Shown: positions 5,541-45,564 of the stretch, piece after piece
Layout: each line of letters begins with the position of its first letter
How positions within the stretch are numbered: the first letter of the stretch is position 1
Made by a program: the position numbers and the translations under genes
Origin: an uncultured virus (IMG/VR IMGVR_UViG_3300044707_000881)
Lineage: Duplodnaviria; Heunggongvirae; Uroviricota; Caudoviricetes
Strand: one strand, 5' to 3'
Virus record (IMG/VR): IMGVR_UViG_3300044707_000881
DNA length: 64,000 bases
The notes under the pieces: model-generated
What the model was told of the DNA's origin: nothing
The model's database searches: none
What the model saw: only the letters and a program-made list of their open reading frames with translations

Positions 5541-5603
5541 ACCGATACCCAGGATTCTGTTTCAGTAAGCTTTCCCTAATTTGAAAAAATTTTCTAAAAC
5601 CTA

Positions 5604-5632
5604 TTGACAATATTTTGTTAGACTGTTACTAT
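5604..5632 (+). promoter_or_regulatory. Early promoter (variant of the repeated cassette promoter)
   Basis: TTGACA-17-TACTAT with extended -10 TG. Confidence 0.8.
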
Positions 5633-5675
5633 CATGGAGTGAGAGAAAAACAACTAGCAACTAGCAGGACAAAAA

Positions 5676-5909
5676 ATGACTTACTACATCAACATGAAAG
5701 ATTCTGGCAAAGTAGCTAAAATCATGACAGAAACAGGCAACACCTGGACAGCTAGGATCAATGGCACTTTAGAGGAAATTCTTGATTATTACATGGGGAA
5801 AAAATTTAATGTTGGGCTGAGACCATCTGACAGAATAGAAACAGTGAAATATGTGGAGGTATTTGATGCTAATGGGATATTGTTGGGCAAGGGATTAAGA
5901 AACACATAA
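5676..5909 (+). CDS. Small early hypothetical protein
   Basis: Own promoter, RBS AGGA and terminator; contains no CpG. Confidence 0.75.
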   Translation: MTYYINMKDSGKVAKIMTETGNTWTARINGTLEEILDYYMGKKFNVGLRPSDRIETVKYVEVFDANGILLGKGLRNT

Positions 5910-5913
5910 ACCA

Positions 5914-5943
5914 AAAGCACACCTCATGAGGTGTGCTTTCTTT
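5914..5943 (+). terminator. Rho-independent terminator
   Basis: AAAGCACACCTC-AT-GAGGTGTGCTTT hairpin followed by T-rich run. Confidence 0.75.
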
Positions 5944-5994
5944 ATCCCTACGAAATTTGTGAGAGTTCAACAGGAATATTAGGAGTATAGCACG

Positions 5995-6201
5995 ATGGAC
6001 GACAATTTAAAAAAAGCTCAACAGAATTACGAGAAATCCGAAAAAGGCAAGGCGCGACGCAAGCGTTACCGCCAGAAGCCTGAAGTCAGGGAACGTGAAC
6101 GGGAATTAGACCGCGAACGCAAGGAGTATAAACGGGAATATATGCGGGAATTTATGCGACAGAAACGGGCAAAGTTGAAGGAAGAAAAACAAGGTGAATG
6201 A
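5995..6201 (+). CDS. Small highly charged helical protein
   Basis: RBS AGGAG; K/R/E-rich 68 aa; CpG-rich, unlike its neighbours. Confidence 0.65.
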   Translation: MDDNLKKAQQNYEKSEKGKARRKRYRQKPEVRERERELDRERKEYKREYMREFMRQKRAKLKEEKQGE

Positions 6202-6337
6202 TGCGGTGAACCCTCTATTTTGAGGGTTTTTAATGATAAAAAAATTTCCAAAAAAACTTTCCAAAACCCCTTGACAAATATTTGTTATCCTGTTACTATA
6301 TAAGAGTGAGAGAAAAAAACAACAGGAAACAAAAACA

Positions 6338-6595
6338 ATGTTTGTTACATTTGAAACCATAGAATCTAAACAAATCACAATTGACATCACTGGAGTAAGT
6401 GGCTGGGATAATGAGCAATTAACAAGATATGCCTGTGAACAATTGAATACAGACTACACAGATTATCAAGGAAGAAGTAGAAAACTGAAAAAAGGGGCAG
6501 TAGTAACTCCAATAAACTGGAGACCTCTAAAAGTCTCTTACAGACAAGAACTTACCATAAAAAGACCACCTAGGAAGTATTCAGTAGTTTTCTAA
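6338..6595 (+). CDS. Small early hypothetical protein
   Basis: Starts at the ATG ending the promoter repeat; terminator hairpin at ~6613-6649. Confidence 0.75.
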   Translation: MFVTFETIESKQITIDITGVSGWDNEQLTRYACEQLNTDYTDYQGRSRKLKKGAVVTPINWRPLKVSYRQELTIKRPPRKYSVVF

Positions 6596-6753
6596 ACATA
6601 AAACCTAAGCATAATACCCTGGATTAGTGATAGTCCAGGGTATTTTTTTAGTCAAAAAAAATTTCCAAAAAAACTTTCCAAAACCCCTTGACAAATATTT
6701 GTTATCCTGTTACTATATAAGAGTGAGAGAAAAAACAACAGGAAACAAAAACA

Positions 6754-7050
6754 ATGATTAATGTCTACTATGCCTGCCTCCTAGATGAAGAAAACTGCCC
6801 AGAAATCACTACAGCATCAAGAAAAAGGGCTTTAGAATTAGCTCAACAAAAAACCAGCAACCCTGTATCAGTAGCAGTATTTGAAAAGGGGGAATATCTG
6901 GTATTTTATGAGAAAATTTCAGTTGATGAGACATTGCCTGAGAACAGGGGATATACTATAAAAGCCATTATCAATGACTTAACTCCTCAGTGTAGTGATG
7001 CAGAATATTCCTCTCATAGAAAAGTTAAAGTTACCTCCCAAGAGTGCTAA
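6754..7050 (+). CDS. Small early hypothetical protein
   Basis: Starts at the ATG ending the promoter repeat; hairpin at ~7077-7103. Confidence 0.75.
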   Translation: MINVYYACLLDEENCPEITTASRKRALELAQQKTSNPVSVAVFEKGEYLVFYEKISVDETLPENRGYTIKAIINDLTPQCSDAEYSSHRKVKVTSQEC

Positions 7051-7219
7051 GACTGAAATATTTGTCCTATTCTTAGTAACCCAGTGCATAAAACACTGGG
7101 TTATTTCATGTTACCTAAGTCAAAAAAAATTTCCAAAAAAACTTTCCAAAACCCCTTGACAAATATTTGTTATCCTGTTACTATATAAGAGTGAGAGAAA
7201 AAACAACAGGAAACAAAAA

Positions 7220-8874: not shown

Positions 8875-9408
8875 ATGGGTTATTTGGATGCAACCATGAA
8901 ACCCATAGCCTACTCAATGCGCCCCGAAGAAGCCTTAAAACTGGCAATTGGGGAAATCAGAATTATTTTAACAACTCAGGCAGAATCAAAGCGGAAAATC
9001 CTGTTTCACGCTTGCAGCTACGACACAACGGAACAGGAAAACGCCGGATTTAAAGCGATCGCACAGTTAGGGTTTTCGCCTGAAGAAGTGCCAACTAATT
9101 CAATTATTGGCTGGGCGAAAATTGCAGACGTGAAAACCTACGACGCGGCAAAATTTGCAATTGACGGGAAACTTCACGGACACGGATTTGATTTAAACCA
9201 GTTTCTTGCTGCTGAAGGTTGGCAAGGTCAACAAGTTTACGGATTAGTTTTAGAGGAACAACATTATTTAAACCTGCCAATTATGGGCGTGGGTTCAGAA
9301 TATGTACACGGCGACTTCTGGGAAGCACAAAGCCCGTTTCAAGTGGTGGCATTTGAACGGGCTTTAGATGCTGGGAGTGTTGATATTGCGGCTGCTGTGG
9401 GGTATTAA
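8875..9408 (+). CDS. Divergent ASCH-like protein
   Basis: AYSMRPEEA...ILFHA...NSIIGWAKIADV; lacks the GxKxxExR motif. Confidence 0.6.
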   Translation: MGYLDATMKPIAYSMRPEEALKLAIGEIRIILTTQAESKRKILFHACSYDTTEQENAGFKAIAQLGFSPEEVPTNSIIGWAKIADVKTYDAAKFAIDGKLHGHGFDLNQFLAAEGWQGQQVYGLVLEEQHYLNLPIMGVGSEYVHGDFWEAQSPFQVVAFERALDAGSVDIAAAVGY

Positions 9409-10016
9409 AGTCCTAATCTTTGTGCTGCGGCACGCGCTGCGGCTCTTTCTCCTGGAGTTGCACCACGTTGGGCTAAATTACGAATTGCATTGGCACGGCG
9501 GGAAGATACGCCACCGCCCCCGGATGCAGTTCTAGCACCCCCAGATCTTGCTGCCCCAGTTCTAGCCGCGCCAGAACCACGATAAGGATCGTTGCTGGTT
9601 CTTTTGAGTCCAGAAGTTCCGCCACGGGCTAATGCACCGCCGCGAGTTGCTAGACCTCCGCCTCCACCGCCGGGGAAGTCGGAGTTAAAATCTCTCCCAG
9701 CTTGCGCTCTTTGTGCGGCTCTTTGCCTTTGGGGGTTGTTTTGAATAGCGATAGAAGCAAGTGTAGCATCACCCCCCCGCGTCAGCCTACCCCTTCTCCC
9801 CCCTCTGGTTCTATTCTGGTTTGCAGCAGCGCGGGTATTTCGCGCCCGCCCGATGCCTATTCTATTCGCATTACCTAATGCTCCTGCTCCGTCAGGGGAA
9901 GTAATCAAAGTTCCATTACTTACCCCTCGCGTTTGATTGCCGCGTCTGCGTCTGCCACCGCCTCTATTCTGAGTGCCGCCAGCAGCAGTTCGTCTACCTC
10001 GTCCACCTCTAGCCAT
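9405..10016 (-). CDS. Arg/Gly/Ala-rich basic low-complexity (protamine-like) protein
   Basis: MARGGRGRR... start at 10016; very few acidic residues. Confidence 0.65.
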   Translation of the reverse strand: MARGGRGRRTAAGGTQNRGGGRRRRGNQTRGVSNGTLITSPDGAGALGNANRIGIGRARNTRAAANQNRTRGGRRGRLTRGGDATLASIAIQNNPQRQRAAQRAQAGRDFNSDFPGGGGGGLATRGGALARGGTSGLKRTSNDPYRGSGAARTGAARSGGARTASGGGGVSSRRANAIRNLAQRGATPGERAAARAAAQRLGL

Positions 10017-10063
10017 AATAGTCAATCCTAATTTTGTAAATATGTTTATTTTTAGTTTTCCCA

Positions 10064-10393
10064 ATGACGGTATTAGTAAAAACCCGCGCGATTCACTACG
10101 AGTTACTGACTGATGAGAGCGAGATTATTGGCGGCGTGTTTGCTGTTAATCACCGCCAATATATCGAGATAGTTGATTTATTTGTAAACAGAGAATTTCA
10201 AAATCAGGGACACGGGCGATCGCTCATGCAGATAATTTTCGACAATCACCCAAACAAAATACTCTGTTTACAATGCGGGGCTTTTAGCAATGGGTTAAGT
10301 CAGGGCAATTTAGCGGAATGGTATAAGCGGCTGGGATTTGTGGAGGGTACGCCATTTCATCAAGGGGATGGATGGATGCACAAACCTATTTAG
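10064..10393 (+). CDS. GNAT N-acetyltransferase
   Basis: LFVNREFQNQGHGRSLM (motif A) and WYKRLGF. Confidence 0.88.
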   Translation: MTVLVKTRAIHYELLTDESEIIGGVFAVNHRQYIEIVDLFVNREFQNQGHGRSLMQIIFDNHPNKILCLQCGAFSNGLSQGNLAEWYKRLGFVEGTPFHQGDGWMHKPI

Positions 10394-11276
10394 CCGTCAT
10401 CCTTGCTGTGATTTCCGGGAACAGATCACACAATTCTTTTAACTGAACCGGAGCATAACGCGCCATCCATTTATAGTAGGTACTACATAGAGTTTCCGGT
10501 GTGCAGTACCACAGAGTCCGAGGAAATGGCTTACCTTTTTTCTGCGGTATTTGGTGCATTGAGTAGATAGGACTAACAGGCGATTCATTCTCAACAAGTA
10601 ACGCCCAAACATCCATATCCAGCCAATCACCCAACGGTAAGGCGCGAACCCACGGCAGTAAATCTTTTTTATCCTGATCATGAAATTGCAGCATTCCAGC
10701 ACGGGCAATTTCAAACTGTCTATCCATACCCTCAGCACCACGCGCACCCCACATATACATTACGTTGGGGGTTCCGTCACCATACAAATGATGAAATTGG
10801 TAGATACTTTCATAACTAATTGACGTGCCAACATCGCCCCAATCCCAAAAGTTTAACCGTTGTCCACCTTCACCCTTCAGACCGTAGGAATTACCCCAAT
10901 CAATATACTTTTTAACTATTAGTGGAAACGGGTCATCAGTTAGATATTCTTCATAATAAAACCCGTTACCAAATGAGTTTATATAATCCTCCCACTCTGG
11001 CAAAACGTCATAATGTTGTGGGAGTTCCGCCCCACAGTCAATAATTAAATTACAATAATCAACCTCTGCCAATTCTAAAATTATCGCAGTTGCCATTGAA
11101 TCTTTACCATACCCAAACCATAGACCCGGTATGACATCCTGATTAACTTTAGGGTTGTCATACCAAGACTGCACACGCTCAATGGTTTTGTTTTTGAGTG
11201 CCTGAAATTCATCAGTTTTCGCCCGTTTCGCTGCTTCCAGATATTTCTTCTGTGGCAGTGCTTTCGATATTTCCAT
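10386..11276 (-). CDS. PAPS-reductase/PP-loop family protein
   Basis: FGYGKDS PP-loop, WGARGAEGMDR, PLGDWLDMDVW. Confidence 0.8.
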   Translation of the reverse strand: MEISKALPQKKYLEAAKRAKTDEFQALKNKTIERVQSWYDNPKVNQDVIPGLWFGYGKDSMATAIILELAEVDYCNLIIDCGAELPQHYDVLPEWEDYINSFGNGFYYEEYLTDDPFPLIVKKYIDWGNSYGLKGEGGQRLNFWDWGDVGTSISYESIYQFHHLYGDGTPNVMYMWGARGAEGMDRQFEIARAGMLQFHDQDKKDLLPWVRALPLGDWLDMDVWALLVENESPVSPIYSMHQIPQKKGKPFPRTLWYCTPETLCSTYYKWMARYAPVQLKELCDLFPEITARMTAK

Positions 11277-11922
11277 CTCCCCAAATATCCCCTTCTAAAA
11301 TATTTTCAGGCACATCATAATTTCCCCAATTCAACACATCTTCTTCCGTGTGCTGGTTTTCTTCTTGGGTTTCTTTGCTGTCATCTTCTTCTTGGTTGTC
11401 GTCGCTTTCTTCTTGTGCATCATGGATCAATTTCTCCAATTCTTCTAAGGGTAAATCGGCATCTAGTTTTAATTGTTGAATACAAGCTAACGCCAATTCT
11501 CGCGCCATTCTGTCTTGTGAGTTTTTAAGAACAGCAACAATAAACGCCTTGCAAATATCCAACTGACGGCGGACATCACCCATTTTTGATAGGCGAACCG
11601 CGCCATCTGCTAAAGCTAAAGTTCCCTGAAATGCTGCTAACATTCCGGTTAGATCAAGCCCCAAAAGCCGCAGTTTTAACTCTTCGACAAACTCAAAAGT
11701 TAGCTCCCCTTGTTCAACTAAAATTTCACACGCTTGGAGTAAAGTTTTACCCTCTTTGGAGAATTTACCAGCGCCTTCAATTTGGCTAAGAATCCGACCA
11801 TGAGCAACATAGAAACTTTCACGGACAATAGTTTCAAAGTCATGATCCTCCGCATCCGTGAAAGCGTCGCGCCATTTCCCAGACAACCTTTTCCCGTAGA
11901 GTCCGTCATTCTTCTTTGGCAT
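11212..11922 (-). CDS. Hypothetical protein (terminase small subunit candidate)
   Basis: Helical protein with acidic tail in a late operon; function is inference only. Confidence 0.45.
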   Translation of the reverse strand: MPKKNDGLYGKRLSGKWRDAFTDAEDHDFETIVRESFYVAHGRILSQIEGAGKFSKEGKTLLQACEILVEQGELTFEFVEELKLRLLGLDLTGMLAAFQGTLALADGAVRLSKMGDVRRQLDICKAFIVAVLKNSQDRMARELALACIQQLKLDADLPLEELEKLIHDAQEESDDNQEEDDSKETQEENQHTEEDVLNWGNYDVPENILEGDIWGDGNIESTATEEISGSSETGEN

Positions 11923-13139: not shown

Positions 13140-14254
13140 TTTTTAACAACCTCTACCGCTTTTTGTGAGTGAATCATTGCTTCATGCAGCGATTTTAACG
13201 CCGCTTCAACATGAGTAGAATCACCACAGGTTTTCATCACCCAGTCAGCAAGCCCGGTAAACTTGCTGGTAACTTGCCATTGTTGTTGTACTATCGTCAT
13301 TCGTTTTCTCGATAGATTTATTGAATCATTGATAACATAATTCTTAGCCCACAGGGAAGCGGTGCTGTGGTCAATTCCTAAATAGGTTTCGCACCAGTAG
13401 GAACTTTTGCCGTTAGCGATCGCATCAATTGCCCTAATCTTCAATTCCTTAGAATAGCCACGCCTCCCAATTGGCGCGGGGTTGTCCCTGAATTGAGTCT
13501 GGCAGGACTTGCACAAATAGCCCTGTTTACCGTCACGTTTACCATTTTTAATAGTTTGATAATCTTTGCAATTTGGACATTGAACCCGCCCAAGTGCCAT
13601 CAACTTTAGTTTTCGTAAAGCGTCAGACTCAATGCGGCGTAACTCCCTCAATTTAATATTGTGAATTTGGCACAGCATTTTGACGGGAATATGGTCAATG
13701 TATAAATCTCGGATAATTGTGGCGTGAAGTTCTGGCAGTTTGTCAAGTAGGGGGAGAATTGAATCTAATTCCTCTTGTTGTTCTGCCGTCAGTTGTTTAG
13801 GCAACTCAGGATTATTCTGATTGCAAGCCATCGCCGCCTCTTTGGCGACTTGCAAGGATATCTCAAGTTCTAAAGCAGCCTGTTCATAAGTTACGCCGTG
13901 CTTTTGGGCGTATCGCTTTAGTTTTTGGTGAGTTTCTTGTAACTGACGCGGGACTTTTACTATCCGCGCTTTATCCCTGACAAATTGCGCCATTGCACCA
14001 TAGATAAAGGGAACAGCGTAACTGGACAGCTTGATTTTCTTGGCAGGGTCAAACCTCTCCACCGCTTTGATCAACCCCTCCGCACCAATTTGTATCAGAT
14101 CTTCTCTTGGGACTGTGCAGCAAGCGGTCATTTTCCCTGCGACATGACCGACCAGTCCCATATTCATCTCAACTATTTTATTTCTCAGTCGGATGTCCCT
14201 GGTTTGGTGAAAATTAATTAAAAGTTGCTGGTTGTCTAAGTATGCCGCGTCCAT
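13136..14254 (-). CDS. SigF/SigJ-like sigma factor fused to IS1 InsA-like Zn-ribbon/HTH
   Basis: EDLIQIG..GLIKAVERFDP..LSSYAVPFI region 2; C-terminal CPNC..IKNGKRDGKQGYLCKSC plus HTH. Confidence 0.85.
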   Translation of the reverse strand: MDAAYLDNQQLLINFHQTRDIRLRNKIVEMNMGLVGHVAGKMTACCTVPREDLIQIGAEGLIKAVERFDPAKKIKLSSYAVPFIYGAMAQFVRDKARIVKVPRQLQETHQKLKRYAQKHGVTYEQAALELEISLQVAKEAAMACNQNNPELPKQLTAEQQEELDSILPLLDKLPELHATIIRDLYIDHIPVKMLCQIHNIKLRELRRIESDALRKLKLMALGRVQCPNCKDYQTIKNGKRDGKQGYLCKSCQTQFRDNPAPIGRRGYSKELKIRAIDAIANGKSSYWCETYLGIDHSTASLWAKNYVINDSINLSRKRMTIVQQQWQVTSKFTGLADWVMKTCGDSTHVEAALKSLHEAMIHSQKAVEVVKK

Positions 14255-14640
14255 TTATTCCAAATTTAGTAATTACCTTTAAATTACCCAGTCCTGGCGT
14301 GTTTGTCACTGATCCAGAAACAGGAAACCCAGTGCAAACCACAACCGATGTAGTTGTCGAAGCATGGATGGAGGGTAACGCCGCAGTCAAGCCCGAACCA
14401 GGGCAAAATCCAAATGTGGTTAATTTACGCGGCTATGCTGTAAAACCTCGACTACTGCCAACTGAGTTGATCCGCAAACAGTCGGAAGCGTCAGCAGTTT
14501 ATACCGATCCTCTCACTGGTAATGAGCAGACGGGAAAGTTTACTTTACAACCGCAATTCGACGGTAAACGTCCCAGAGTCACCAAGGCTTTAGCCCGTGC
14601 TTTGGGGGCGGAATTACAAGGTACTTTTGAGTTTGGGTAA
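14242..14640 (+). CDS. Putative head-tail connector/closure protein
   Basis: Position before gp10-like gene; paralog fragment at 21579. Confidence 0.5.
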   Translation: MPRPFIPNLVITFKLPSPGVFVTDPETGNPVQTTTDVVVEAWMEGNAAVKPEPGQNPNVVNLRGYAVKPRLLPTELIRKQSEASAVYTDPLTGNEQTGKFTLQPQFDGKRPRVTKALARALGAELQGTFEFG

Positions 14641-14641
14641 T

Positions 14642-14926
14642 ATGCCGATTTGGAGAAGTTGGACACCACCGCAATTAACCGTAACCATTGCCGATTACCA
14701 ATGGTCAGCACCTTACGCCTATGATGTTCATGAACGACAAGGAAACCGATGGACTGATCGGGCGTTAGTTGGTAGTGATTTAACTGCGGTTTTTAAAAAT
14801 AACTACCAAACTACTCTAGACATGGCATTTATCCAAACCGCATATTATTTGAATCAACGATTTTTAGATGAAGTGCCTCAAAGAACCGGAACATTAAAAG
14901 CGTCACAATCCATGAAGTTATCATGA
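14642..14926 (+). CDS. HK97 gp10-like neck protein
   Basis: VPQRTGTLKAS motif; ATG at 14642. Confidence 0.5.
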   Translation: MPIWRSWTPPQLTVTIADYQWSAPYAYDVHERQGNRWTDRALVGSDLTAVFKNNYQTTLDMAFIQTAYYLNQRFLDEVPQRTGTLKASQSMKLS

Positions 14927-17755: not shown

Positions 17756-18274
17756 ATGAACAATAATAATTATGGAATGTCTCAAACACGAGACAAATGT
17801 TATGGCGTAGCCGCTTGTCTTACCTATTGGGCTTTCAAGTGCCGTGACAGAAAACGTAGTCCAGCGATGGGTACTAAAACCTGGACTTACTTGGAATCAA
17901 GTATTAGAAACTCTGCTGAAATATCAACTAATTTAGAAGATTATTTGCAGCGACTTTGTGATAAACTTTGTTCACAATTACGCCCAATCGAGTTAACAAA
18001 AATAATTCAGCCAACACAACGGATACTAAGAGTAAATGAAGATGCGACGGAAATCAAGGAACTTCCCGTTGACCAAAATCTTGTATTTATGGGATGGTTG
18101 GATTTAATTGCTGACATTCAACCACACGGATTTACCGAGTGGGATGTACTTGAACTACTGAGAACCAAAGCAGGGATTATTCAAGTAATTTGTAGATTAC
18201 GGTTTGAGGAAGACCGCAGTTTAGGGTTAGATGAACCAGAAGAGTTTATAGAAGTTGAGGTGACAAATGTTTGA
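17756..18274 (+). CDS. Type IV-B small subunit (Cas11-like)
   Basis: Helical 172 aa, first gene of the csf operon, overlaps csf2. Confidence 0.55.
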   Translation: MNNNNYGMSQTRDKCYGVAACLTYWAFKCRDRKRSPAMGTKTWTYLESSIRNSAEISTNLEDYLQRLCDKLCSQLRPIELTKIIQPTQRILRVNEDATEIKELPVDQNLVFMGWLDLIADIQPHGFTEWDVLELLRTKAGIIQVICRLRFEEDRSLGLDEPEEFIEVEVTNV

Positions 18275-19397
18275 TAATTACGATGTTTTTGACCGTGAAA
18301 GATTGACATTGCATTGTGTAATTACGACACAAACGCCACTTTCACATATTGGGGAAGTGTCGGGAAATGTGAGCAATTTAAAAACATTAAAATTACTGGA
18401 TTTTGAAGGTAATCCCAGAAGTGTTTTCACCTATTCTGGAAATGCCTTGAGAAATGGTTTGTTACGGCGTGTAGGTGTAGCTGCGGCGTTAACTGAATTA
18501 GGATTACAGGTAAATCCTGATACACACCATACAATGTTTGCAGGTGGCAGGATTGATGCCGGTACAGCTTCAGATATGGAACTTGATAAAAAGATCCGGG
18601 TTCTAATGCCTTGGTTGTCGGTCTTAGGAACTGCTAAACCTGCTAAAGTGTTTGGTTCTAAAGATGCCCAAATGGTGCAAGGTAGGATTAATGTAGGTTC
18701 TGCTTACTTGGCTTGTTATGAGTCAGCAGAGTACATCTACAATCAGATACCAGCAATATTACCACCGGAAATACAACCCGCTATTCAGAAGCTAATTGAG
18801 GCTAAAAATAAATTATCTTCAGACCCATTCACTCCCACAAAAACTGAAGATTTGGATAATTGGAATCAAGCAAAAAATGACTACTTGCCTTTGATTAGAA
18901 AAGTAATGAAAACATGGTCTGAATATTTAACGGTTGATCAAACTACCCGCAGAGATGCAACTTTAGATCCTAATTTGATTAAATTTCTGCCAACAGAAGT
19001 ACAGGCGCAACTCAAGGGAGATGGTGCAGCTAAAGAGAAAAAATCGGATCAAATGATTGCTTCCGATAGATTAATTATGCCAGGAGCAAAACTATACTCA
19101 AGATGGGATTTGAACTGTACGCAAGTTGAGCAGGGATGGATTTTTGATACTTTATTGAAGTTTGCACAATTCCCGTATTTAGGTGGTAAAGGCAATCGCG
19201 GAAATGGTCGAGTCAGCATGAATTTCTGGTTTAGTTCTGAGTCAGAACGTGGTTTATTGTGGAGTTCTGAAAGTGGTGTAGAGAGCGATAGATTTAACCT
19301 GGCACACGCTAAATATAGAGAATATATCAATCAATATCAACAGTTTTTGAGTGAGGCGAAAACATCAACTGAGTTAAGGAGTTTGTTGGGTGGATAA
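18267..19397 (+). CDS. csf2: Type IV Cas7 RAMP (Csf2)
   Basis: TPLSH...YSGNALRNGLLRR...MFAGG and Gly-rich loop YLGGKGNRGNGRV. Confidence 0.85.
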   Translation: MFDNYDVFDRERLTLHCVITTQTPLSHIGEVSGNVSNLKTLKLLDFEGNPRSVFTYSGNALRNGLLRRVGVAAALTELGLQVNPDTHHTMFAGGRIDAGTASDMELDKKIRVLMPWLSVLGTAKPAKVFGSKDAQMVQGRINVGSAYLACYESAEYIYNQIPAILPPEIQPAIQKLIEAKNKLSSDPFTPTKTEDLDNWNQAKNDYLPLIRKVMKTWSEYLTVDQTTRRDATLDPNLIKFLPTEVQAQLKGDGAAKEKKSDQMIASDRLIMPGAKLYSRWDLNCTQVEQGWIFDTLLKFAQFPYLGGKGNRGNGRVSMNFWFSSESERGLLWSSESGVESDRFNLAHAKYREYINQYQQFLSEAKTSTELRSLLGG

Positions 19398-20079
19398 CTT
19401 AAAAATTACAGCACATTTGGCGACATCTTTGGGTGCTTATGACAACTGGAGTCCATCGCTAGAAGGGATTTTAGTTTATAGGCTTTTAGAACAAAATAAT
19501 CTACTTTCACCTAATCCCACGCCAGATCAAGTAGCAGAAACCAAAGAGTTTATTGAGCAGAATTTACCACTAAAACAAGGTGTCATTAAGTCAGAGAAAT
19601 ATTGGTGCGTGAGTTCACCTTGCTATGTTTTGCAGGGTGAAGCTACAGACAAATATAGAAAACGATGGGATAATCACGAAAACAATTTAGACTGGGGTAA
19701 GCGTAAGCCCAAATTTTTAACAGGTGAAGGGGCGGAAAAATCCTATGATTTACCGCTTTACACAAGGTTAATTAATTCTATTTCTTGGTTTGCTGTAGGC
19801 GATAAAACGGCAATCAAAAATCTTTTGTCGTCTGTTACTCACATTCAGAAAAAGCGTAGTTACGGCAATGGTGAAGTCAGGGAATGGGAAATAGGGGTGA
19901 TTTACGATAATTACCATCTGTGGCGTGATAGTAAATTAATGCGTCCTATCCCTGTTAGATTACTTGATCAAAAAATAGATAATCCTCAGATGGTTTGGGG
20001 GTGGAGAAGTCCCGCTTGGTTAGCGGCAAACAAGGAGTTGTGCTATATGCCAAAGGATAACGTGATTTATGCTAAGTAA
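19390..20079 (+). CDS. csf3: Type IV Cas5 RAMP (Csf3)
   Basis: LKITAHL N-terminus; WFAVGD...THIQKKRSYGNGEVREWEI; MRPIP. Confidence 0.8.
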   Translation: MDNLKITAHLATSLGAYDNWSPSLEGILVYRLLEQNNLLSPNPTPDQVAETKEFIEQNLPLKQGVIKSEKYWCVSSPCYVLQGEATDKYRKRWDNHENNLDWGKRKPKFLTGEGAEKSYDLPLYTRLINSISWFAVGDKTAIKNLLSSVTHIQKKRSYGNGEVREWEIGVIYDNYHLWRDSKLMRPIPVRLLDQKIDNPQMVWGWRSPAWLAANKELCYMPKDNVIYAK

Positions 20080-20815
20080 CGGATCTGGCGTTCAATATCC
20101 CTGGTTAAAAAAGAAAATAACCAGGGCAAAAGACTTAATTAAAACATGGTTAGAGCAATGCGATTATCAGGTTTACGCTAGTGTGTCAGGTGGTAAAGAT
20201 AGCCTAGTGATGTCACATTTGATTAGGCAAGTTTACTCAGATTGTCCATTGGTCTGGGTAAATCAGGGAATGTTTGCTGAATGGGATGATTGCATTGAAT
20301 TATTAGAGTTTTTGAAAACTCAGGGGTGGAATATTATTGAACTTTGTCCAGTGCGTGATTTATGGCATTTGTATCTGGATTATGGCGTTCCCCTTGAAGG
20401 GACGATGGACACAAAAGCCGATAAATTGATAAATCAAAAACTGATTTATGACCCGCTTAATGAATACCAAGAATTGAATAATGTTAAGGGTTATGCGTGG
20501 GGAATACGTAAGCAAGAAAGCAAAAACCGCGCATTTTATCTCAACAAATATGGTGAAGTGCATACGCTCAAAAACGGGTTGATTTGTTGCTCACCCGTGG
20601 CATTTTGGACTACTCAAAATATCTGGGAATATATTGATATGCACTCGTTAAAATACCCTGCTATTTATGATGTTGATAGAATGACAGTTAGGAATGGATG
20701 CCCAATCGGTACAACAGGTGCTAACTGGGGAAGATTAGCAGAGTTAAGAAAGCATTACCCAGATATTTATAATCAATTTGCTACTAAATTTCCACAGGTA
20801 TCAACCTATGTCTAA
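20069..20815 (+). CDS. CysH-like PAPS reductase (type IV-B associated)
   Basis: SVSGGKDS, WGIRKQESKNR, PVAFWTTQNIWEYI. Confidence 0.88.
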   Translation: MLSNGSGVQYPWLKKKITRAKDLIKTWLEQCDYQVYASVSGGKDSLVMSHLIRQVYSDCPLVWVNQGMFAEWDDCIELLEFLKTQGWNIIELCPVRDLWHLYLDYGVPLEGTMDTKADKLINQKLIYDPLNEYQELNNVKGYAWGIRKQESKNRAFYLNKYGEVHTLKNGLICCSPVAFWTTQNIWEYIDMHSLKYPAIYDVDRMTVRNGCPIGTTGANWGRLAELRKHYPDIYNQFATKFPQVSTYV

Positions 20816-21560
20816 TTGCTACCTTTGCGCTAAACCCGGATCTAATGCTTTGGAATTATCCAATACATTCACGATGCACTCGTCAGCTAAATGTCCAGAG
20901 TCTAAAGTGCTATGCGATCGCTGTCACTCTACAATTTCCGGTAATCAAAAGCAGCTTTGGTACTGGAATGAAGGTAAAAATAAATGGTCAAAGCTGTGGG
21001 GACGTTCTTTGTCCAGGGTTTATCAGGGTGATAAGCTAATTGCGCCTGTCGTTGAAGGTGAATATACAGAAGGCAAGGATACTTTTTCAATAGTTAAAAA
21101 CTTGCTGACTAGGGTGGGAATTAGGCAATACTTGTTAAATCCACCTGAACCGCCTTTTACTATAGCCATAGCAGAATCGGGGCAAAAACATATTATCCCT
21201 TGGGCGTTAGAAGGTCAAAACAGAGATTTATTCCCTGTGCAATTTGAACTCGACACTATTTATATTGACAATAGATTTAGAGAATATTTGGAAATTTACG
21301 AACAATTGATGGGATTAGGTTTTAGTAAGTCTGAAATTGATTCTGGAGATTATCGAAGCGATCGCCTAATGAAAGTTTTTGATCAATATGGGGAACTTGA
21401 GGAACGGATAGCGCGTATTAGGGGAACGAGATTAATGCAATTAATTAGCTATGTTGCCCAAGTGCAAGACGCGCCGCCAATTACGGAAGTAGTGCAAATT
21501 CCCGTAATGCCTGTTTCACCAAAAACACTTGAGAAGCCACTGCAATTATCTTTGTTTTAG
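20808..21560 (+). CDS. csf1: Type IV large subunit (Csf1, Cas8-like Zn-finger protein)
   Basis: CYLC...TFT...C...CDRC; LLNPPEPPF...SGQKH; C-terminus QLSLF. Confidence 0.8.
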   Translation: MSNCYLCAKPGSNALELSNTFTMHSSAKCPESKVLCDRCHSTISGNQKQLWYWNEGKNKWSKLWGRSLSRVYQGDKLIAPVVEGEYTEGKDTFSIVKNLLTRVGIRQYLLNPPEPPFTIAIAESGQKHIIPWALEGQNRDLFPVQFELDTIYIDNRFREYLEIYEQLMGLGFSKSEIDSGDYRSDRLMKVFDQYGELEERIARIRGTRLMQLISYVAQVQDAPPITEVVQIPVMPVSPKTLEKPLQLSLF

Positions 21561-21578: not shown

Positions 21579-22063
21579 ATGTCCAAACTATTCATCCCCA
21601 ATTTCATCATTTACGCCACGCTCCCAACCATAGAAGCGACTTGTGGAGACTATGAAGTTGACCCGGAAACCGGAAACCCGATTGCAGTCAATACCACCCT
21701 GGAGATTAAGGCATGGATGCAAGGCTATGATCAGCTACGGCAGGGGCGAACCACGGCTAAACCGGAACATCCAAGCGTAGATTTTAACACCGTTTATTTG
21801 TCAGGTTATGCCGTCACACCTAAAGCCATACCCGCCCGGACATTGTTGGCGCGTGAAAAATATGGTGGTCTGGCTTGTTTAATGCCTTCAAGGGTAAAGA
21901 CGACGCGCCGATGGATTTTGTGGACTTATTGCCGTTTGCAGATGATATTAAAACTGGCAACAAACGGATAAGTTTCGCCACAGAAAAGGTCATTAAAAAG
22001 TTGGTCAAAGACGAATCTTTGCCAACTCAAATATTATCTATTTTGGGGATGTTGTTAGAATGA
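21579..22063 (+). pseudogene. Fused relic of connector gene N-terminus and tail-chaperone C-terminus
   Basis: 21579-~21835 resembles 14242 (FIPN, DPETGNP, AWM, GYAV); 21875-22063 resembles 55649 (DLLPF vs DFLPF). Confidence 0.6.
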
Positions 22064-22080
22064 TTTGTGTTATAATAGTC

Positions 22081-22157
22081 GCATATATTGAACTTTTATA
22101 ACACTGCTATCTTCGTCTTGGTTGTCAGGTTTCCCCGTCCCCTTGGATGGGGTTTTG
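22081..22157 (+). ncRNA. Candidate small RNA, copy 1
   Basis: Extended -10 TGTTATAAT (TATAAT at 22071); 5' 30 nt shared with copy 2; terminator hairpin plus TTTT. Confidence 0.55.
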
Positions 22158-23210: not shown

Positions 23211-23285
23211 TTTGTTATTGATTGTATGGATAAGGTTGAAAGTGCGATCGCCCCAAAAGAGACGACCGCGTGACGTACTATAGTC

Positions 23286-23368
23286 GCATATATTGAACTT
23301 TTATAACGCTGCTATTCCCCTCACTTGGTATTAGATGTCTCTCGCCCCATCCCCTTGGATGGGGTTTT
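23286..23368 (+). ncRNA. Candidate small RNA, copy 2
   Basis: TACTAT at 23276 with the same spacing as copy 1; same 5' block and terminator. Confidence 0.55.
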
Positions 23369-23457
23369 ATTTTGCACTAAAAATGTATTTAATATTTTCA
23401 GTGGCTTTACTCAATTCTCTTAATCGCTTATTCGCCTCTTTCGATGTCGTCATAACG

Positions 23458-25005: not shown

Positions 25006-25093
25006 AATAAATCTTTCCTATTCAATATTTGTTCAATATTTGCGATGTTTACGAAAGCGCGGTCGTCTCTTTTGGGGCGATCGCCTAAATTAA

Positions 25094-26002: not shown

Positions 26003-27871
26003 ATGAAAACTATTAAAATCAAGGTCAAACTTCTTGCTGAACAGGCGCAATCATGCGATCGCTACCTAGAAGAATTGACATGGCTATGGAATCAGGTATT
26101 GGCTAATCAATTGCATAACCATTGCATCACCTGGTACAACTGGGCTGGTAAGTTGAGCGCAGATTTAGCTAAGGCGACGGAAAAGTTAGAGAAGCTAAAA
26201 CCGGAACAACAGCAGCTTGTTAGGAACTACTACCGCAGCAAAGACAAGCCAAAACTCAACAAAAAAGAACAGGAATTAGTTGCCAAATTTGATATATTTT
26301 CCCGGTGGTTGCCGTTTGACTTAGAAAATATTATTCCCGTACCTTTGCGAGTTGGCAACAGTGGCTACGAGGGCTTATCGTGCCAGATTGCTACAGGCGG
26401 AAGTTACTGGAAACGGGACGATAATTTTAATATTCCCATTAAAACCAAAAAGGGGATTATTCACGTCAAAGGGTCTAAATTAGTTAAGGGTGATTACCCC
26501 TGGAAACGGATAGAGATAATCCCCCACAAATACAAAACTTTCCCCAGTGGTAAGTTTGAGGGGAGGGAATTAATAGATTTAATGAAGTTTGATAATTTGA
26601 ACGGGTTAAACGGGTTAAGAGCGATGCAAAACCTACCAGACTTAACCGTTTCATCTCACTACGTCGGAGGCTTGTTAGGGTTTTTCAAACAGTCATGGTT
26701 AGCATTTTTAGACCCCAAAAGGATAAACAGCAGGAAGCCAAAATTCAAAAAAGATGCTGATAAGATTAGCACTTTATTTAATAAGCAATGTCCACCAAAT
26801 AAGATAGACATAAAGAATAATTCAGTTGAAATTACTGGATTTGGCAATTTAATCGTTACTGATAGAAGTTGGGGGGAAAGACTGAACCTAGATAGCAGTC
26901 TTCCTCGGGCGTATATGCTAACCAAAAAAGCATCTGGCTACTATATCAATATTGTCCTTGCTCACCCATTGCAAGAAGAAAAAGCGGTTTTAACAAAGAA
27001 ATTACCCAAGGTTAAAAAGGAGCTTGGAGAAGACAGCCAAGAGTACGAAAATATTAAGTCTAAAATCAAGTTTATTGAACAGCAAATCAAGGATTCGTTA
27101 ATCGTAGTGGGAAAGAATTTAAGCGTAGGGATTGACCCTGGAGTACAGGCTATTGTGGCGACAGATCACGGGGCGTTATTCCTCCCAAATCTAAGCAGGG
27201 AAAGAGTGTCAATCCATATAGAGGAACTACAATCAAGGCTTGATAACCTTGAATTAATTAATGATAAAAAGTGGAAAGATTCAGGAAGCAAAGGTGCTAG
27301 ACCTAAGACAAAAAACGAGATTAAGATACAAGATAAAATTACCAGATTACATGAACGTGGGGCTAATTCTTCTAATGCCTTTAATCATAAAATGTCAACT
27401 AGATTAAGCAGGACTTACGAGCATATAGCATGGGAGGATACCCAGTTAACCAATCTCCTAAAACAAACAGAAGCTAAAGCATTGCCTGAAGGGGTGGGAT
27501 ATGCTCACAACGGCGCGTCTGCTAAACGGGGTTTAAATTGGATTATGAGACAAAGATGCTTGGGTGATTTAAAAGCTAAAACTAAGCAAAAAGTTGAGAA
27601 CAGAGGCGGTAGTTTTCATGAACCACCTGCTAACTACAGTTCTCAACTATGCCATTGTTGTCATCAGAAAGGTGAGCGATTATCACAGTATGAGTTTGTC
27701 TGCAAAAACTCTGAATGTGAGTTATTTGAACAGGTGCAACAAGCTGACACCAATGCGGCTAGGAATCACAAACATAATAGTAGTTTTGAACTAGGAGAAG
27801 TCAAATATCACAACACTAGATTGGTTTACCAAAAACCCAAGAGATTTAAAAAGAAACGCTTGACAAAGTAG
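26003..27871 (+). CDS. TnpB-derived compact type V (Cas12-like) RNA-guided nuclease
   Basis: MKTIKIK..L TnpB-like N-terminus; RuvC-I VGIDPG, RuvC-II IAWED, Zn finger CHCC..C...C, RuvC-III ADTNAARN; adjacent array. Confidence 0.88.
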   Translation: MKTIKIKVKLLAEQAQSCDRYLEELTWLWNQVLANQLHNHCITWYNWAGKLSADLAKATEKLEKLKPEQQQLVRNYYRSKDKPKLNKKEQELVAKFDIFSRWLPFDLENIIPVPLRVGNSGYEGLSCQIATGGSYWKRDDNFNIPIKTKKGIIHVKGSKLVKGDYPWKRIEIIPHKYKTFPSGKFEGRELIDLMKFDNLNGLNGLRAMQNLPDLTVSSHYVGGLLGFFKQSWLAFLDPKRINSRKPKFKKDADKISTLFNKQCPPNKIDIKNNSVEITGFGNLIVTDRSWGERLNLDSSLPRAYMLTKKASGYYINIVLAHPLQEEKAVLTKKLPKVKKELGEDSQEYENIKSKIKFIEQQIKDSLIVVGKNLSVGIDPGVQAIVATDHGALFLPNLSRERVSIHIEELQSRLDNLELINDKKWKDSGSKGARPKTKNEIKIQDKITRLHERGANSSNAFNHKMSTRLSRTYEHIAWEDTQLTNLLKQTEAKALPEGVGYAHNGASAKRGLNWIMRQRCLGDLKAKTKQKVENRGGSFHEPPANYSSQLCHCCHQKGERLSQYEFVCKNSECELFEQVQQADTNAARNHKHNSSFELGEVKYHNTRLVYQKPKRFKKKRLTK

Positions 27872-27888
27872 ATGGTTTTAGTTATTAT
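27860..27888 (+). promoter_or_regulatory. Promoter for tracrRNA-like RNA
   Basis: TTGACA-17-TATTAT overlapping the effector stop codon. Confidence 0.7.
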
Positions 27889-27894
27889 CAATTT

Positions 27895-28040
27895 ACCGCA
27901 GTTTGGACGGGATGACTGGTTCTGTCAGTCTATGACTTGATGATTTTACGATCAAAAAGTAAGGGAGATGGTGACTACTCCCATAGACCAGCCGGAACTA
28001 TGGCTGGCAATCCTCAGAAGGGATTAATCATTTTGCAATC
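27895..28040 (+). ncRNA. tracrRNA-like RNA
   Basis: Three hairpins followed by an anti-repeat at 28008-28038 complementary to the CRISPR repeat. Confidence 0.75.
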
Positions 28041-28165
28041 ATCGAAGCGGCGTGGCTAAAACAAACCCGCGCGCAAATCCAGAACCTAGACAAGCGAAGG
28101 GATTAGAGCTATCTTTGCAGAATATCAAAAGGGATTTAAGCGGCTGCAATGGACTTTTTGGATTC

Positions 28166-29082
28166 CTTGCAGGATGACTAATCCCTTCTGAGGGATTGAA
28201 ACAATGATACTGGTAACACGTTCTCTTGGTTGTTTACCTTGCAGGATGACTAATCCCTTCTGAGGGATTGAAACCAGCCTGGAGAGGGAATTTCAGCAAG
28301 AATTAGAACTTGCAGGATGACTAATCCCTTCTGAGGGATTGAAACTCCTTGCCAGAAATTAAGGAACAGTGCGAGATGATGACTAGCTTGCAGGATGACT
28401 AATCCCTTCTGAGGGATTGAAACTATCAGAATATTGATTAATAGATGTAGTGTAATGTGCTTGCAGGATGACTAATCCCTTCTGAGGGATTGAAACGACA
28501 GTATCCTTCATTGTGCTATTGGAAATAATGAGCTTGCAGGATGACTAATCCCTTCTGAGGGATTGAAACTAACCATTTGTTCTAGCAGTTGGTTTTCTGC
28601 TATGTTCTTGCAGGATGACTAATCCCTTCTGAGGGATTGAAACAACTTCCAAGAGGGCGCGGAGGTCAAGTCCAAACTTGCACTTGCAGGATGACTAATC
28701 CCTTCTGAGGGATTGAAACCACCAAAGGCAAGAATTAGCACAAGAATTTGTACCTTGCAGGATGACTAATCCCTTCTGAGGGATTGAAACTGTTTCCCGT
28801 CTCCCAGTTTGGCGAGTGCATCGGAATTGCTTGCAGGATGACTAATCCCTTCTGAGGGATTGAAACAGATCCTTTTGTGGGATTGATAGCAGCCCGTTGT
28901 ACTTGCAGGATGACTAATCCCTTCTGAGGGATTGAAACTTGACTTAATTCTATTCCCCCAAAAGATGACATTACTTGCAGGATGACTAATCCCTTCTGAG
29001 GGATTGAAACGCGCTAATTCTTTCACTGCAAATACTCCTATTGATCTTGCAGGATGACTAATCCCTTCTGAGGGATTGAAAC
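28166..29082 (+). CRISPR. CRISPR array: 13 identical 37-bp repeats, 12 spacers of 34-41 bp
   Basis: Repeat CTTGCAGGATGACTAATCCCTTCTGAGGGATTGAAAC at 28166, 28238, 28309, 28387, 28460, 28533, 28607, 28683, 28754, 28830, 28902, 28974, 29046. Confidence 0.99.
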
Positions 29083-39139: not shown

Positions 39140-39352
39140 TTAGGCGATCGCCGCCTGGATAATTTTATGCGCCTGATTGCCAGACATACCGTCTGGCAAC
39201 TGAATTCCAACCATGTTGACCGCAGGTGCGGTCATGTCATCGGAAAGTCCGAAATTCCAGTCATAGTCCGGTGCTTGTGTCAGTGTTGCGCCGGGAATGG
39301 CTGCCAACACTTTTTCAGCATTTTCTCTTTTAACTCTGATTACCTTCATCAA
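39140..39352 (-). CDS. Small cargo protein of RHH cassette 1
   Basis: Shares its 5'UTR with the gene starting at 41401. Confidence 0.6.
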   Translation of the reverse strand: MMKVIRVKRENAEKVLAAIPGATLTQAPDYDWNFGLSDDMTAPAVNMVGIQLPDGMSGNQAHKIIQAAIA

Positions 39353-39423
39353 CTTAACCAGGGGATTGTGAGTGGTGGCTTGGTTGTTTTCCCCCTGCCT
39401 CCTTATTTATAAATGTACACCAT

Positions 39424-39639
39424 CTATTCTAGCTTGTCAAGTGATTTTGAAAAATTTTCTTGAAACCACTCCAAAGACTTACTAGATAAGACTTCCACGA
39501 AATTAACTAAGTCTGGATTGATAGTTTGCTTATAATTGCGACTATATCCTGATGCTATTAATTTTCTACACAGTTGTTCCTTGACATCCTCAGTGCATCT
39601 AACTTTTATCTCTGTTGTCCGGTTTAATGATGGTCGCAT
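39424..39639 (-). CDS. RHH-like small regulator (paralog 1)
   Basis: MRPSLNRTTEIKVRCT...; paralog of 41467-41682. Confidence 0.7.
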   Translation of the reverse strand: MRPSLNRTTEIKVRCTEDVKEQLCRKLIASGYSRNYKQTINPDLVNFVEVLSSKSLEWFQENFSKSLDKLE

Positions 39640-40339
39640 GATTCCATCTGTTAGTTGTACACCATTAACTATAACAGAGATTTTTGTCAAGGGGTAGTCA
39701 TGCGAATGAGGAAATATCCAAGAATCCCCATAGAATCAGGACTTGGAGTATCAATCACTGCAACTATCTATTGATTCTCTATGGCTATAGTTAAATGCTT
39801 ATGCTAAAATTAAAACACCTCCCCAAATGCACTCCGGGAAGGTGTTTCGTTTACTTGTAAAAACTTGAATTATGAATATCCTAGCATCCCCTGTGGATAG
39901 CGTGGGGTAATAATGACTGGTGCTTGAATTACACCCCACAGGATACCTTTAGACATCTACTTTCCATTTTTTACACCAGTCTTGGAACTCCTGAGACTGC
40001 ATACTATCTTGCAGTCTGTAAGGCAGGAGATATTTTAACTTCTCCTCAGTGGCGCGGACTTTTTCACCACACTTTTTGGCTAGTGATTGGGCATCTCTCA
40101 ATCCTTCTTTTGTGAAGGGGAAATAGCGATTATACTCATCACCGTCTTCTTTTGAGAACTCAAATACCAGATAGCATTTAACTAATGTCTCTTGCAGAGA
40201 TCGGAATTTATTTCTATGCCACTCTTGCGGTCTTTCTAATGCCTTGTTTTTCATCGTTTTCTTGTGGGGTATGTGACAGCTTCCCACGACTACCAGGTGG
40301 TAGTTTCGGACGGTAGCCAGCCGTCCATCATCAGGTGGG

Positions 40340-41401: not shown

Positions 41402-41466
41402 CTTAACCAGGGGCTTGTGAGTGGTGCTTGTCTTCCCCCTCTCTCCATATTTTAGTTGTACCCCAA

Positions 41467-41682
41467 CTATTTTTGATTGTCAAGATTTTTTTCAAAGTTT
41501 TTTTCAAACCAACCCAAAGGCTTATCCGCTAAGGCTTCTAGGAAGTCTACAAAGTTTGGGTTTATGTTACCGTCCTTAGTACGTTTGTACCCGACAGATA
41601 TTAGTTTTCTCGCTAGCTGTTCCTTGACTTTTTTGGTACATCTGGCTTTTATCTCTGTTGTGCGGTTAAGTGATGGACGCAT
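41467..41682 (-). CDS. RHH-like small regulator (paralog 2)
   Basis: MRPSLNRTTEIKARCT... Confidence 0.7.
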   Translation of the reverse strand: MRPSLNRTTEIKARCTKKVKEQLARKLISVGYKRTKDGNINPNFVDFLEALADKPLGWFEKNFEKNLDNQK

Positions 41683-41758
41683 GGCTTTATCCTTTATAGT
41701 TGTACACCATTAACTATAGCAGACGATTTTGTCAATGGTTGTCATGCGATTGAGGAAA

Positions 41759-45502: not shown

Positions 45503-45564
45503 TTTATTTGCCTTTTGCCTTTTGCTTTTTTGATTGCCTCTCTACATTTATAACTGTATAGCAC

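What the first reader, a model, noticed from the sequence alone, without database searches (positions are those of the whole stretch)
17756..21560. Complete type IV-B-like operon on a phage that also carries a CRISPR array and a second PAPS-reductase
Seen: overlapping cas11-like, csf2, csf3, cysH-like and csf1 genes, with no cas6 or dinG. Known: type IV-B loci usually lack arrays and their function and native RNA are unresolved. Here an array lies 6.6 kb away and candidate sRNAs 0.5 kb away. Inference: the complex may sequester host crRNAs or direct CysH-like nucleic-acid modification.
Basis: partly seen in the sequence, partly recalled or inferred. Interest (0 to 1): 0.75.

Follow-up and report, generated by a model that had tools for sequence, protein, structure and literature searches.

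The report
Cyanophage type IV-B beside Cas12p array
A virus of bloom-forming cyanobacteria carries a real, complete type IV-B CRISPR-like gene set, but the nearby CRISPR array belongs to a separate, already described Cas12p nuclease; the useful leads are a DNA-clamp docking peptide and a swappable enzyme.

Summary
The five-gene type IV-B operon (cas11-csf2-csf3-cysH-like-csf1) is real, on a Nostocales-type tailed phage, with no cas6 or dinG found in the window. A complete phage genome with the window's gene set has no array or Cas12p found. The second PAPS-reductase travels with a ParB/sigma cassette. The sRNA-like units occur only in relatives at 96% or more. Leads on function: Csf1 ends in the clamp-binding consensus QLSLF; QxxL[FL] sits in the Csf1 tail or a Csf2 loop in 21 of 29 lineages; CysH is swapped for a 28%-identical form while Csf stays 95-98% identical. 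Against full independence, IV-B and Cas12p travel together in the closest phages. The scan noted this pairing and the Csf1 tail before on other DNA. New member of a known kind.

The parts
17756..18274 (+). cas11-like small subunit, 172 aa
   Evidence: PADLOC typeIV_Cas11 E 1.7e-6; conserved just upstream of csf2 in relatives
18267..19397 (+). csf2 (Cas7 backbone), 376 aa
   Evidence: PADLOC 2e-36; profile hit to 7JHY Csf2 E 1.8e-4; fold matches 8rc3, 8rc2, 7jhy
19390..20079 (+). csf3 (Cas5), 229 aa
   Evidence: PADLOC 1.8e-41, TIGR03116 4.6e-10
20069..20815 (+). CysH-like PP-loop protein (clade A), 248 aa; SGGKDS loop, no C-terminal catalytic Cys of true CysH
   Evidence: Pfam PF01507; alignments; model pLDDT 85.7 with CysD, FAD synthase and APS reductase tied at Z 18.5-19.2
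20811..21560 (+). csf1 (Zn-finger large subunit), 249 aa from ATG (260 aa from TTG 20778)
   Evidence: PADLOC 8.2e-23; invariant C3, C6, C35, C38
21543..21557 (+). C-terminal QLSLF of Csf1, matching the beta-clamp-binding consensus QL[S/D]LF
   Evidence: sequence; consensus from PMC12309361; counts in relatives
22075..22157 (+). sRNA-like unit 1 (extended -10 box, conserved 36 nt, terminator hairpin); not shown to belong to IV-B
23280..23370 (+). sRNA-like unit 2, paralogue of unit 1
26003..27871 (+). Cas12p (type V-P, 'Cas12 hacker') nuclease, 622 aa, RuvC D/E/D motifs present; separate system
   Evidence: phmmer to 9JFS/9JG3, 1139.7 bits over residues 1-613; motifs
27895..28041 (+). tracrRNA region of Cas12p (ends approximate), anti-repeat about 28007-28041
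   Evidence: inverted match to the repeat; duplex -44.5 kcal/mol with its own repeat against -28.8, -21.9, -19.5 with others
28166..29082 (+). CRISPR array, 13 x 37 nt repeats, 12 spacers; belongs to Cas12p
   Evidence: spacer 8 protospacers have a 5' GTN flank in 4 of 4
10386..11276 (-). second PAPS-reductase-like gene, part of a separate sigma-ParB-like-unknown-PAPSr cassette beside a GNAT and the terminase
   Evidence: 22% identical to the IV-B CysH over 81 aa

Best explanation
Three independent cassettes sit in one variable region of a Nostocales phage: a stand-alone type IV-B module, a Cas12p system that owns the array, and a ParB/PAPS-reductase cassette (this part about 0.85 likely; shown by comparative sequence evidence). 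Most likely working of the IV-B module (about 0.35-0.4; inferred): Csf2 and Cas11 form a filament on RNA that does not come from this array and is capped by Csf3 and Csf1; the QLSLF tail of Csf1 docks the complex on the host beta sliding clamp at replicating DNA; the CysH-like protein is an ATP pyrophosphatase that adenylates a substrate, probably a base of newly made DNA, as a counter-defence mark; the enzyme is an exchangeable payload. Shown here: gene identity, owner of the array, the motifs, the swaps. Inferred: RNA cargo, clamp binding, substrate, benefit to the phage.
For: Array owner: Cas12p ends 295 nt before the first repeat; tracr pairs best with its own repeat in 3 of 4 loci; repeat type changes with Cas12p identity; a plasmid-like contig has Cas12p (69%), tracr and a 33/37 repeat, csf2 not found in that genome; spacer 8 protospacers GTT, GTT, GTT, GTC match the GTN PAM reported for Cas12p. 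Independence: G672 (complete, same five gene types, no cas6) and G671 (complete, with cas6) have no Cas12p and no repeat pair found at array spacing; 3 of 18 lineages with 9 kb or more downstream have Cas12p there. Clamp: QL[SD]LF in 8 of 29 lineages, QxxLF in 13 of 29, QxxL[FL] in 21 of 29, against 0.0-1.4% of random 34-aa windows and 4-9 of 409 other C-termini; the Csf2 loop lies in a low-confidence, variable-length stretch. Enzyme: PP-loop invariant, Cys of RNG[C/P]P not conserved, as PMC8175902 describes for CasCysH; L008 against L009/L012: CysH 28% identical, Csf genes 95-99%; clade B has a cupin or Coq4-like partner in 9 of 13 lineages, clade A alone in none.
Against: IV-B (74-91%) and Cas12p (76-79%) are among the best conserved genes shared with G005-G007 while tail genes are 27-34%, and they lie 0.9-7.9 kb apart in all of G002-G007: they travel together. 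8 of 29 lineages have no QxxL[FL] at either site, three of them (L110, L114, L117) at 78-86% Csf2 identity to the window. The either-or pattern of tail and loop motif is not significant (Fisher p 0.11-1.0; 0.064 with a motif chosen after seeing the data) and lineages are related. Fold matches do not name a substrate. The solved IV-B complex resembles RNA-targeting Csm (PMC7937560). A 28% swap on an unchanged scaffold could mean that CysH does not touch the complex. GTN is also, from memory, the type I-D acquisition PAM, so it is not unique to Cas12p.
Confidence: 0.45

Rival explanations
1. Csf complexes soak up host crRNAs or other small RNAs and blunt host CRISPR immunity (the sponge idea).
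For: Phage location; the solved IV-B complex binds mixed RNA (PMC7937560); 8 of 27 lineages with 3.5 kb or more downstream carry a Cmx6-type cas6 in the operon with no array nearby; 55 of 301 Nostocaceae-family genomes match the array query, mostly through related repeats.
Against: Co-expressed crRNAs were not enriched (about 0.12% of reads); it does not explain the CysH module, its swaps or the clamp motif; PMC7038947 calls it unlikely.
Confidence: 0.17
2. The module modifies or silences RNA, not DNA: a Csm-like filament holds RNA and CysH adenylates or otherwise changes it.
For: Csm-like architecture; tRNA-modifying PP-loop enzymes among the lower fold matches (NcsA Z13.7, TilS Z12.4, TtuA Z11.7); three invariant Cys in clade A (C75, C93, C174); an earlier scan note reports an RNA methylase in other IV-B operons (e1-8002543, not tested here).
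Against: A clamp motif points to DNA; clade B has none of these Cys and still replaces clade A.
Confidence: 0.18
3. IV-B shares the Cas12p array: host Cas6 cuts the host-like repeat and Csf loads these crRNAs to act on plasmids or rival phages.
For: Co-travel of the two modules; the repeat shares its 3' hairpin with host arrays, 21-25 of 37 nt; G005 has a second array 0.9 kb after csf1 without a Cas12p gene beside it; G668 has IV-B, cas6 and two orphan mini-arrays about 40 kb away.
Against: The G005 second array carries its own Cas12p-type tracr; complete IV-B genomes have no array found; repeats follow Cas12p; no cas6 in the window.
Confidence: 0.13
4. The sRNA-like units at 22075 and 23280 are the native RNA of this complex.
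For: 515 nt after csf1, same strand, promoter box and terminator, one G-U to G-C change that keeps the stem in L005; 75-85 nt long.
Against: Found only in relatives at 96% or more Csf2 identity, not in the other fetched loci or in 8 whole records searched; distance to csf1 is 0.5, 3.4 or 5.1 kb; the middles are homologous, not spacer-like; no Rfam match.
Confidence: 0.05

Closest known systems
Subtype IV-B CRISPR-Cas (Mycobacterium sp. JS623 Csf complex, PDB 7JHY; PMC7937560, PMC7038947, PMC8175902; passages read)
   Same: csf1, csf2, csf3, cas11 and a cysH-like gene with a PP-loop and no catalytic Cys; no dinG, cas6, adaptation genes or array of its own; on a mobile element.
   Different: Cyanobacterial phage rather than actinobacterial plasmid; csf1 last in the operon and ending in QLSLF; distant in sequence (7JHY Csf2 only E 1.8e-4 by profile); relatives often carry Cmx6-type cas6 (8 of 27) where PMC7038947 reports 12 instances in all.
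Virus-borne IV-B of 'Fuxiviridae' (PMC10848311, passages read)
   Same: IV-B with CysH-like gene on a virus, near a CRISPR element; the paper also notes type IV in prophages and lytic phages.
   Different: There a two-repeat mini-array lies in the locus; here the array has its own Cas12p and tracrRNA.
Type V-P CRISPR-Cas12p (bioRxiv 10.1101/2025.01.20.633832, passages and section 7 read; PDB 9JFS, 9JG3)
   Same: Phage-borne 500-700 aa nuclease, tracrRNA, 37-nt repeat, GTN PAM; the window's gene aligns over 613 residues.
   Different: The main text has no mention of 'type IV', 'Csf' or 'Cas6'; its supplement (Fig. 2b, gene neighbourhoods) was not seen and may show the neighbour.
Beta-clamp clients with QL[S/D]LF (PMC12309361, passages read)
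   Same: Exact C-terminal QLSLF on a flexible tail, as in B. subtilis PolC.
   Different: Binding is not tested for Csf1; the motif also turns up in a Csf2 loop of relatives.

Membership tests
Type IV-B CRISPR-Cas | csf2 (type IV Cas7) | tested here: met
   TIGR03115 below cut-off
Type IV-B CRISPR-Cas | csf3 and csf1 | tested here: met
Type IV-B CRISPR-Cas | cas11 small subunit | tested here: met
   PADLOC E 1.7e-6, three models; weak but in the expected slot and conserved
Type IV-B CRISPR-Cas | cysH-like gene with PP-loop and no catalytic Cys | tested here: met
Type IV-B CRISPR-Cas | no dinG, no cas6, no own array | tested here: met
   within the 64 kb window; array assigned to Cas12p; rest of the genome not held
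Type IV-B CRISPR-Cas | forms a Csf ribonucleoprotein | not testable with these tools
   needs purification
Type IV-A CRISPR-Cas | dinG, Cas6/Csf5, own array, no cas11 | tested here: not met
   no dinG or cas6 family found in the window; cas11 and cysH present
Type V-P (Cas12p), for 26003-29082 | Cas12p nuclease with tracrRNA, 37-nt repeat and GTN PAM | tested here: met
True PAPS/APS reductase (CysH) | C-terminal catalytic Cys motif and family score | tested here: not met
   TIGR00434 42.9 of 165.1 bits; alignment to E. coli CysH ends at residue 207; Cys of RNG[C/P]P varies
Beta-clamp client | QL[S/D]LF in a flexible region | tested here: met
Beta-clamp client | binds DnaN | not tested

The most novel reading that the evidence does not exclude
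Type IV-B is a clamp-tethered nucleic-acid modification platform: the Csf filament docks on the host replisome through a clamp motif that sits on the Csf1 tail in some lineages and on a Csf2 loop in others, and carries interchangeable CysH-like enzymes (with cupin or Coq4-like helpers) that mark replicating DNA; in this phage group it may also draw guides from the co-travelling Cas12p array.
Probability: 0.3. Interest if true: 0.82.

Novelty: new member of a known kind. Interest (0 to 1): 0.4.

Why it matters
The function of type IV-B is an open question. It does supply natural variants for tests: near-identical Csf sets with two different CysH enzymes, lineages with and without Cas6, and a clamp motif at two alternative sites. 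If clamp binding holds, IV-B would be placed at replicating DNA and the substrate search would narrow.

Tried and rejected
No own genome was held, so absence claims cover the 64 kb window and named relatives only. No tRNA and no Rfam match at gathering score. No RNA holder was listed; this is no evidence on expression. Co-folding of CysH with Csf1 and Csf3 was not available, so whether CysH touches the complex is open. Search for mini-arrays or single repeats near IV-B in 88 loci: arrays only beside Cas12p/C2c8 or a Cas12p-type tracr; lone GGGA[C/T]TGAAAC hits (such as 650 nt before csf2 in L091/L109) lacked the hairpin and were dropped; the I-MYXAN-like motif used there was recalled and gave scattered hits only. 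sRNA unit 1 matches 11378-11400 at 20 of 23 nt, antisense to the gene before the second PAPS-reductase; 1 of 54 control windows did as well and the target is a low-complexity acidic stretch, so it was rejected as probable chance. Spacer searches: nothing in named phages, nothing for the L010 arrays in plasmids; 1 of 25 spacers matched the 9 candidate loci ungapped. Csf2 found in no named phage and in 2 of 401 and 2 of 301 cyanobacterial genomes, one of them the Dolichospermum bin in both. The single-linkage count (cas6 in 9 of 26) was replaced by greedy dereplication (8 of 27); 6 of 88 loci without a full csf2 were dropped first. The Csf2 tree has 15 of 31 inner branches unresolved and gives no order of cas6 gain or loss. 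Two host arrays were fetched to type them; no cas genes were found among 17 ORFs scanned beside them, so 'type I-D-like' for the host repeat is recalled. Paper searches; none of the 15 papers listed (of 226) holds 'clamp-binding motif', and one search listed no paper on cyanophage type IV. Supplements of PMC7038947 and of the Cas12p preprint were not seen and may list these loci.
Full report
1. Observation. The ORFs at 17756-18274, 18267-19397, 19390-20079, 20069-20815 and 20811-21560 are on one strand and overlap head to tail. PADLOC types them as type IV Cas11, Csf2, Csf3 and Csf1 (E 1.7e-6, 2e-36, 1.8e-41, 8.2e-23). The NCBIfam Csf models hit but stay under their cut-offs. The fourth gene passes Pfam PAPS_reduct. 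A Csf2 model (pLDDT 76.8) matches type IV Csf2 chains best: 8rc3 Z15.3 (rmsd 8.1, 250 aligned), 8rc2 Z15.1 (3.4, 202), 7jhy Z12.4 (4.2, 208), the last tied with a Csm3 chain. No Cas6 or DinG was found in the window (66 of 73 ORFs scanned; tblastn with three Cas6 of relatives). Terminase, tail and tape-measure genes show a lambda-like tailed phage; the nearest named tail J genes include two Cylindrospermopsis phages and the one genome hit is a Dolichospermum bin, so a Nostocales host is inferred.

2. The array has another owner. A 622-aa gene at 26003-27871 ends 295 nt before the first repeat. It aligns over 613 residues to Cas12p of PDB 9JFS/9JG3 (1139.7 bits) and keeps the three RuvC motifs. 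The preprint on Cas12p (10.1101/2025.01.20.633832; passages and section 7 read) reports a tracrRNA, a 37-nt repeat and a GTN PAM. The gap holds an anti-repeat that pairs with the window's repeat at -44.5 kcal/mol against -28.8, -21.9 and -19.5 for the repeats of three relatives; own-repeat pairing is best in 3 of 4 loci, the fourth preferring a sister repeat. Repeats change with Cas12p identity. A plasmid-like contig carries Cas12p (69%), the tracr and a repeat identical at 33 of 37 nt, and csf2 was not found in that genome. Spacer 8 matches Anabaena sp. 90 plasmid pANA03 at 33 of 34 nt and three more loci, all four with a GTN flank; it was the only one of 25 spacers matched in the 9 loci tested. 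From memory GTN is also the type I-D acquisition PAM, so this supports but does not prove the assignment. An earlier scan note on this window (e1-7981910) gave me the name Cas12p, which I then checked.

3. IV-B without an array. The Csf2 family is common in freshwater metagenomes (301 proteins). I fetched 50 viral, 41 metagenome, 1 genome and 1 plasmid loci; of 88 analysed, 82 had a full csf2, giving 36 lineages at 95%. Arrays near IV-B were seen only beside Cas12p, a C2c8 gene or a Cas12p-type tracr. Of 18 lineages with 9 kb or more downstream, 3 have Cas12p there. Two records classed as complete, G672 (same gene types as the window, no cas6) and G671 (with cas6), have no Cas12p and no repeat pair at array spacing found. 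[quoted passage not shown] Against full independence: in all six closest records G002-G007 both modules are present, 0.9-7.9 kb apart, and they are among the best conserved genes between the window and G005-G007 (IV-B 74-91% apart from the swapped CysH, Cas12p 76-79%, tail genes 27-34%). The repeat shares its 3' hairpin with host arrays (21-25 of 37 nt), so a host Cas6 could in principle cut it. G668 has IV-B, cas6 and two orphan mini-arrays far away. I read this as a shared counter-defence island, with guide sharing left at about 0.13.

4. The other two neighbours. The second PAPS-reductase-like protein is 22% identical to the IV-B CysH over 81 aa and in 8 of 8 loci lies with the same unknown gene and GNAT, in 7 of 8 also with sigma, ParB-like and terminase genes; IV-B genes are within the fetched flank only in the record identical to the window. 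The sRNA-like units have a -10 box, a conserved 36 nt and a terminator, and look real, but they occur only in relatives at 96% or more, at 0.5, 3.4 or 5.1 kb from csf1, and their middles are homologous rather than spacer-like.

5. How the module may work. The CysH-like protein has an invariant SGGKDS loop; the Cys in RNG[C/P]P varies; C75, C93 and C174 are invariant in its clade. Its model (pLDDT 85.7) matches CysD (Z19.2, rmsd 2.4, 165 aligned), FAD synthase (18.7) and APS reductase (18.5), tied; tRNA thiolases follow at 11.7-13.7. This fits the ATP pyrophosphatase reading of PMC8175902 (passages) and names no substrate. A second clade (SWGKDS, no conserved Cys) replaces it at 28% identity while Cas11, Csf2, Csf3 and Csf1 stay 95-99% identical (L008 against L009 and L012), and brings a cupin or Coq4-like gene in 9 of 13 lineages. 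L014 has three csf3, two csf1 and both CysH clades behind one full csf2. So the enzyme is exchangeable cargo. Cmx6-type cas6 lies inside the operon in 8 of 27 lineages with enough flank, including Gloeobacter plasmid pGMOR1, more often than the 12 instances in PMC7038947; the window's branch lacks it. Csf1 ends in QLSLF, the clamp-binding consensus (PMC12309361, passages); the lead came from note e1-3494983 and I tested it. Among 29 lineages with csf1: QL[SD]LF in 6 tails and 2 Csf2 loops; QxxLF in 8 tails and 5 loops, never both; QxxL[FL] in 21 of 29 (13 loop only, 6 tail only, 2 both, 8 neither). Background is 0.0-1.4% of random 34-aa windows and 4-9 of 409 other C-termini. The enrichment is strong, the either-or pattern is not significant, lineages are related, and three close relatives have neither. 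My committed model is a clamp-tethered Csf filament that places an adenylating enzyme at replicating DNA (about 0.35-0.4); RNA modification (0.18) and crRNA sponging (0.17) remain open. Clamp binding, CysH contact and substrate are all inferred.

6. Known or new. Every tested feature of IV-B is met; IV-A and true CysH are not. Virus-borne IV-B is in print (PMC10848311, passages; PMC7038947), as are cyanophage type V-U arrays (PMC6293099, passages) and Cas12p. The scan has already noted IV-B beside a Cas12 array and the Csf1 clamp tail on other DNA. What this study adds is the motif in the Csf2 loop, the CysH swap on a near-identical scaffold, and complete genomes without an array.

7. Verdict. 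New member of a known kind; interest 0.4. The selling point of the finding, a IV-B system with its own array, falls. The clamp and swap leads make an open question easier to test.

Noticed in passing
L007:16620-17400 (- strand) and L022:3943-3981: Complete phage G005 has a second tracr+array cassette without a Cas12p gene beside it, 0.9 kb after csf1; a spacer of its main Cas12p array matches that second tracr with 1 mismatch and a non-GTN flank.
   Followed up: partly
L010:14188-20480: Two convergent type V systems, Cas12p and a C2c8-like gene, with two different arrays meeting tail to tail right after the IV-B operon.
   Followed up: partly
L014:1699-8665 (also L120): One full cas11-csf2 followed by three csf3, two csf1 and both CysH clades; paralogues 36-52% identical.
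   Followed up: partly
L072:11463-16470: Gloeobacter morelensis plasmid pGMOR1 has this IV-B clade with annotated Cmx6 and cupin, no array found in 25 kb, and another PAPS-reductase gene between two methyltransferases 4 kb further.
   Followed up: partly
L175:6060-6240 and 14630-14890: Phage G668 (IV-B with cas6, no Cas12p found) has two mini-arrays with the same repeat type about 40 kb from the operon.
   Followed up: no
L163:3200-5832: Cas12p, tracr and array on a 23.6 kb plasmid-like contig of a Nostocaceae-family genome; the preprint describes Cas12p as phage-borne.
   Followed up: partly
window 21579-21971: Gene 19 nt after csf1 is a hybrid: in L003 its two halves flank an intact block of tail-like genes, so the window lost about 4.6 kb here; it is a paralogue of 14242-14640.
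   Followed up: partly
window 44776-44887: Two copies of a 41-nt sequence 71 nt apart, mini-array-like spacing, overlapping the end of a small ORF.
   Followed up: no
window 39345-39693, 41394-41738, 45546-45635; 5566-7219: Long repeated intergenic blocks before small inserted genes, probably promoter cassettes.
   Followed up: no
window 23244-23270 and 25058-25084: Perfect 27-nt inverted repeat 1787 nt apart, flanking three minus-strand genes and sRNA unit 2.
   Followed up: no
window 9405-10064 (-): Very Arg/Gly-rich ORF between the GNAT and the ParB/PAPS-reductase cassette, conserved in its relatives.
   Followed up: no
L171 and L173-L174 (G671): csf1 lies about 8 kb from cas11-csf2-csf3-cysH-cas6 on the other strand, a split IV-B operon.
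   Followed up: no
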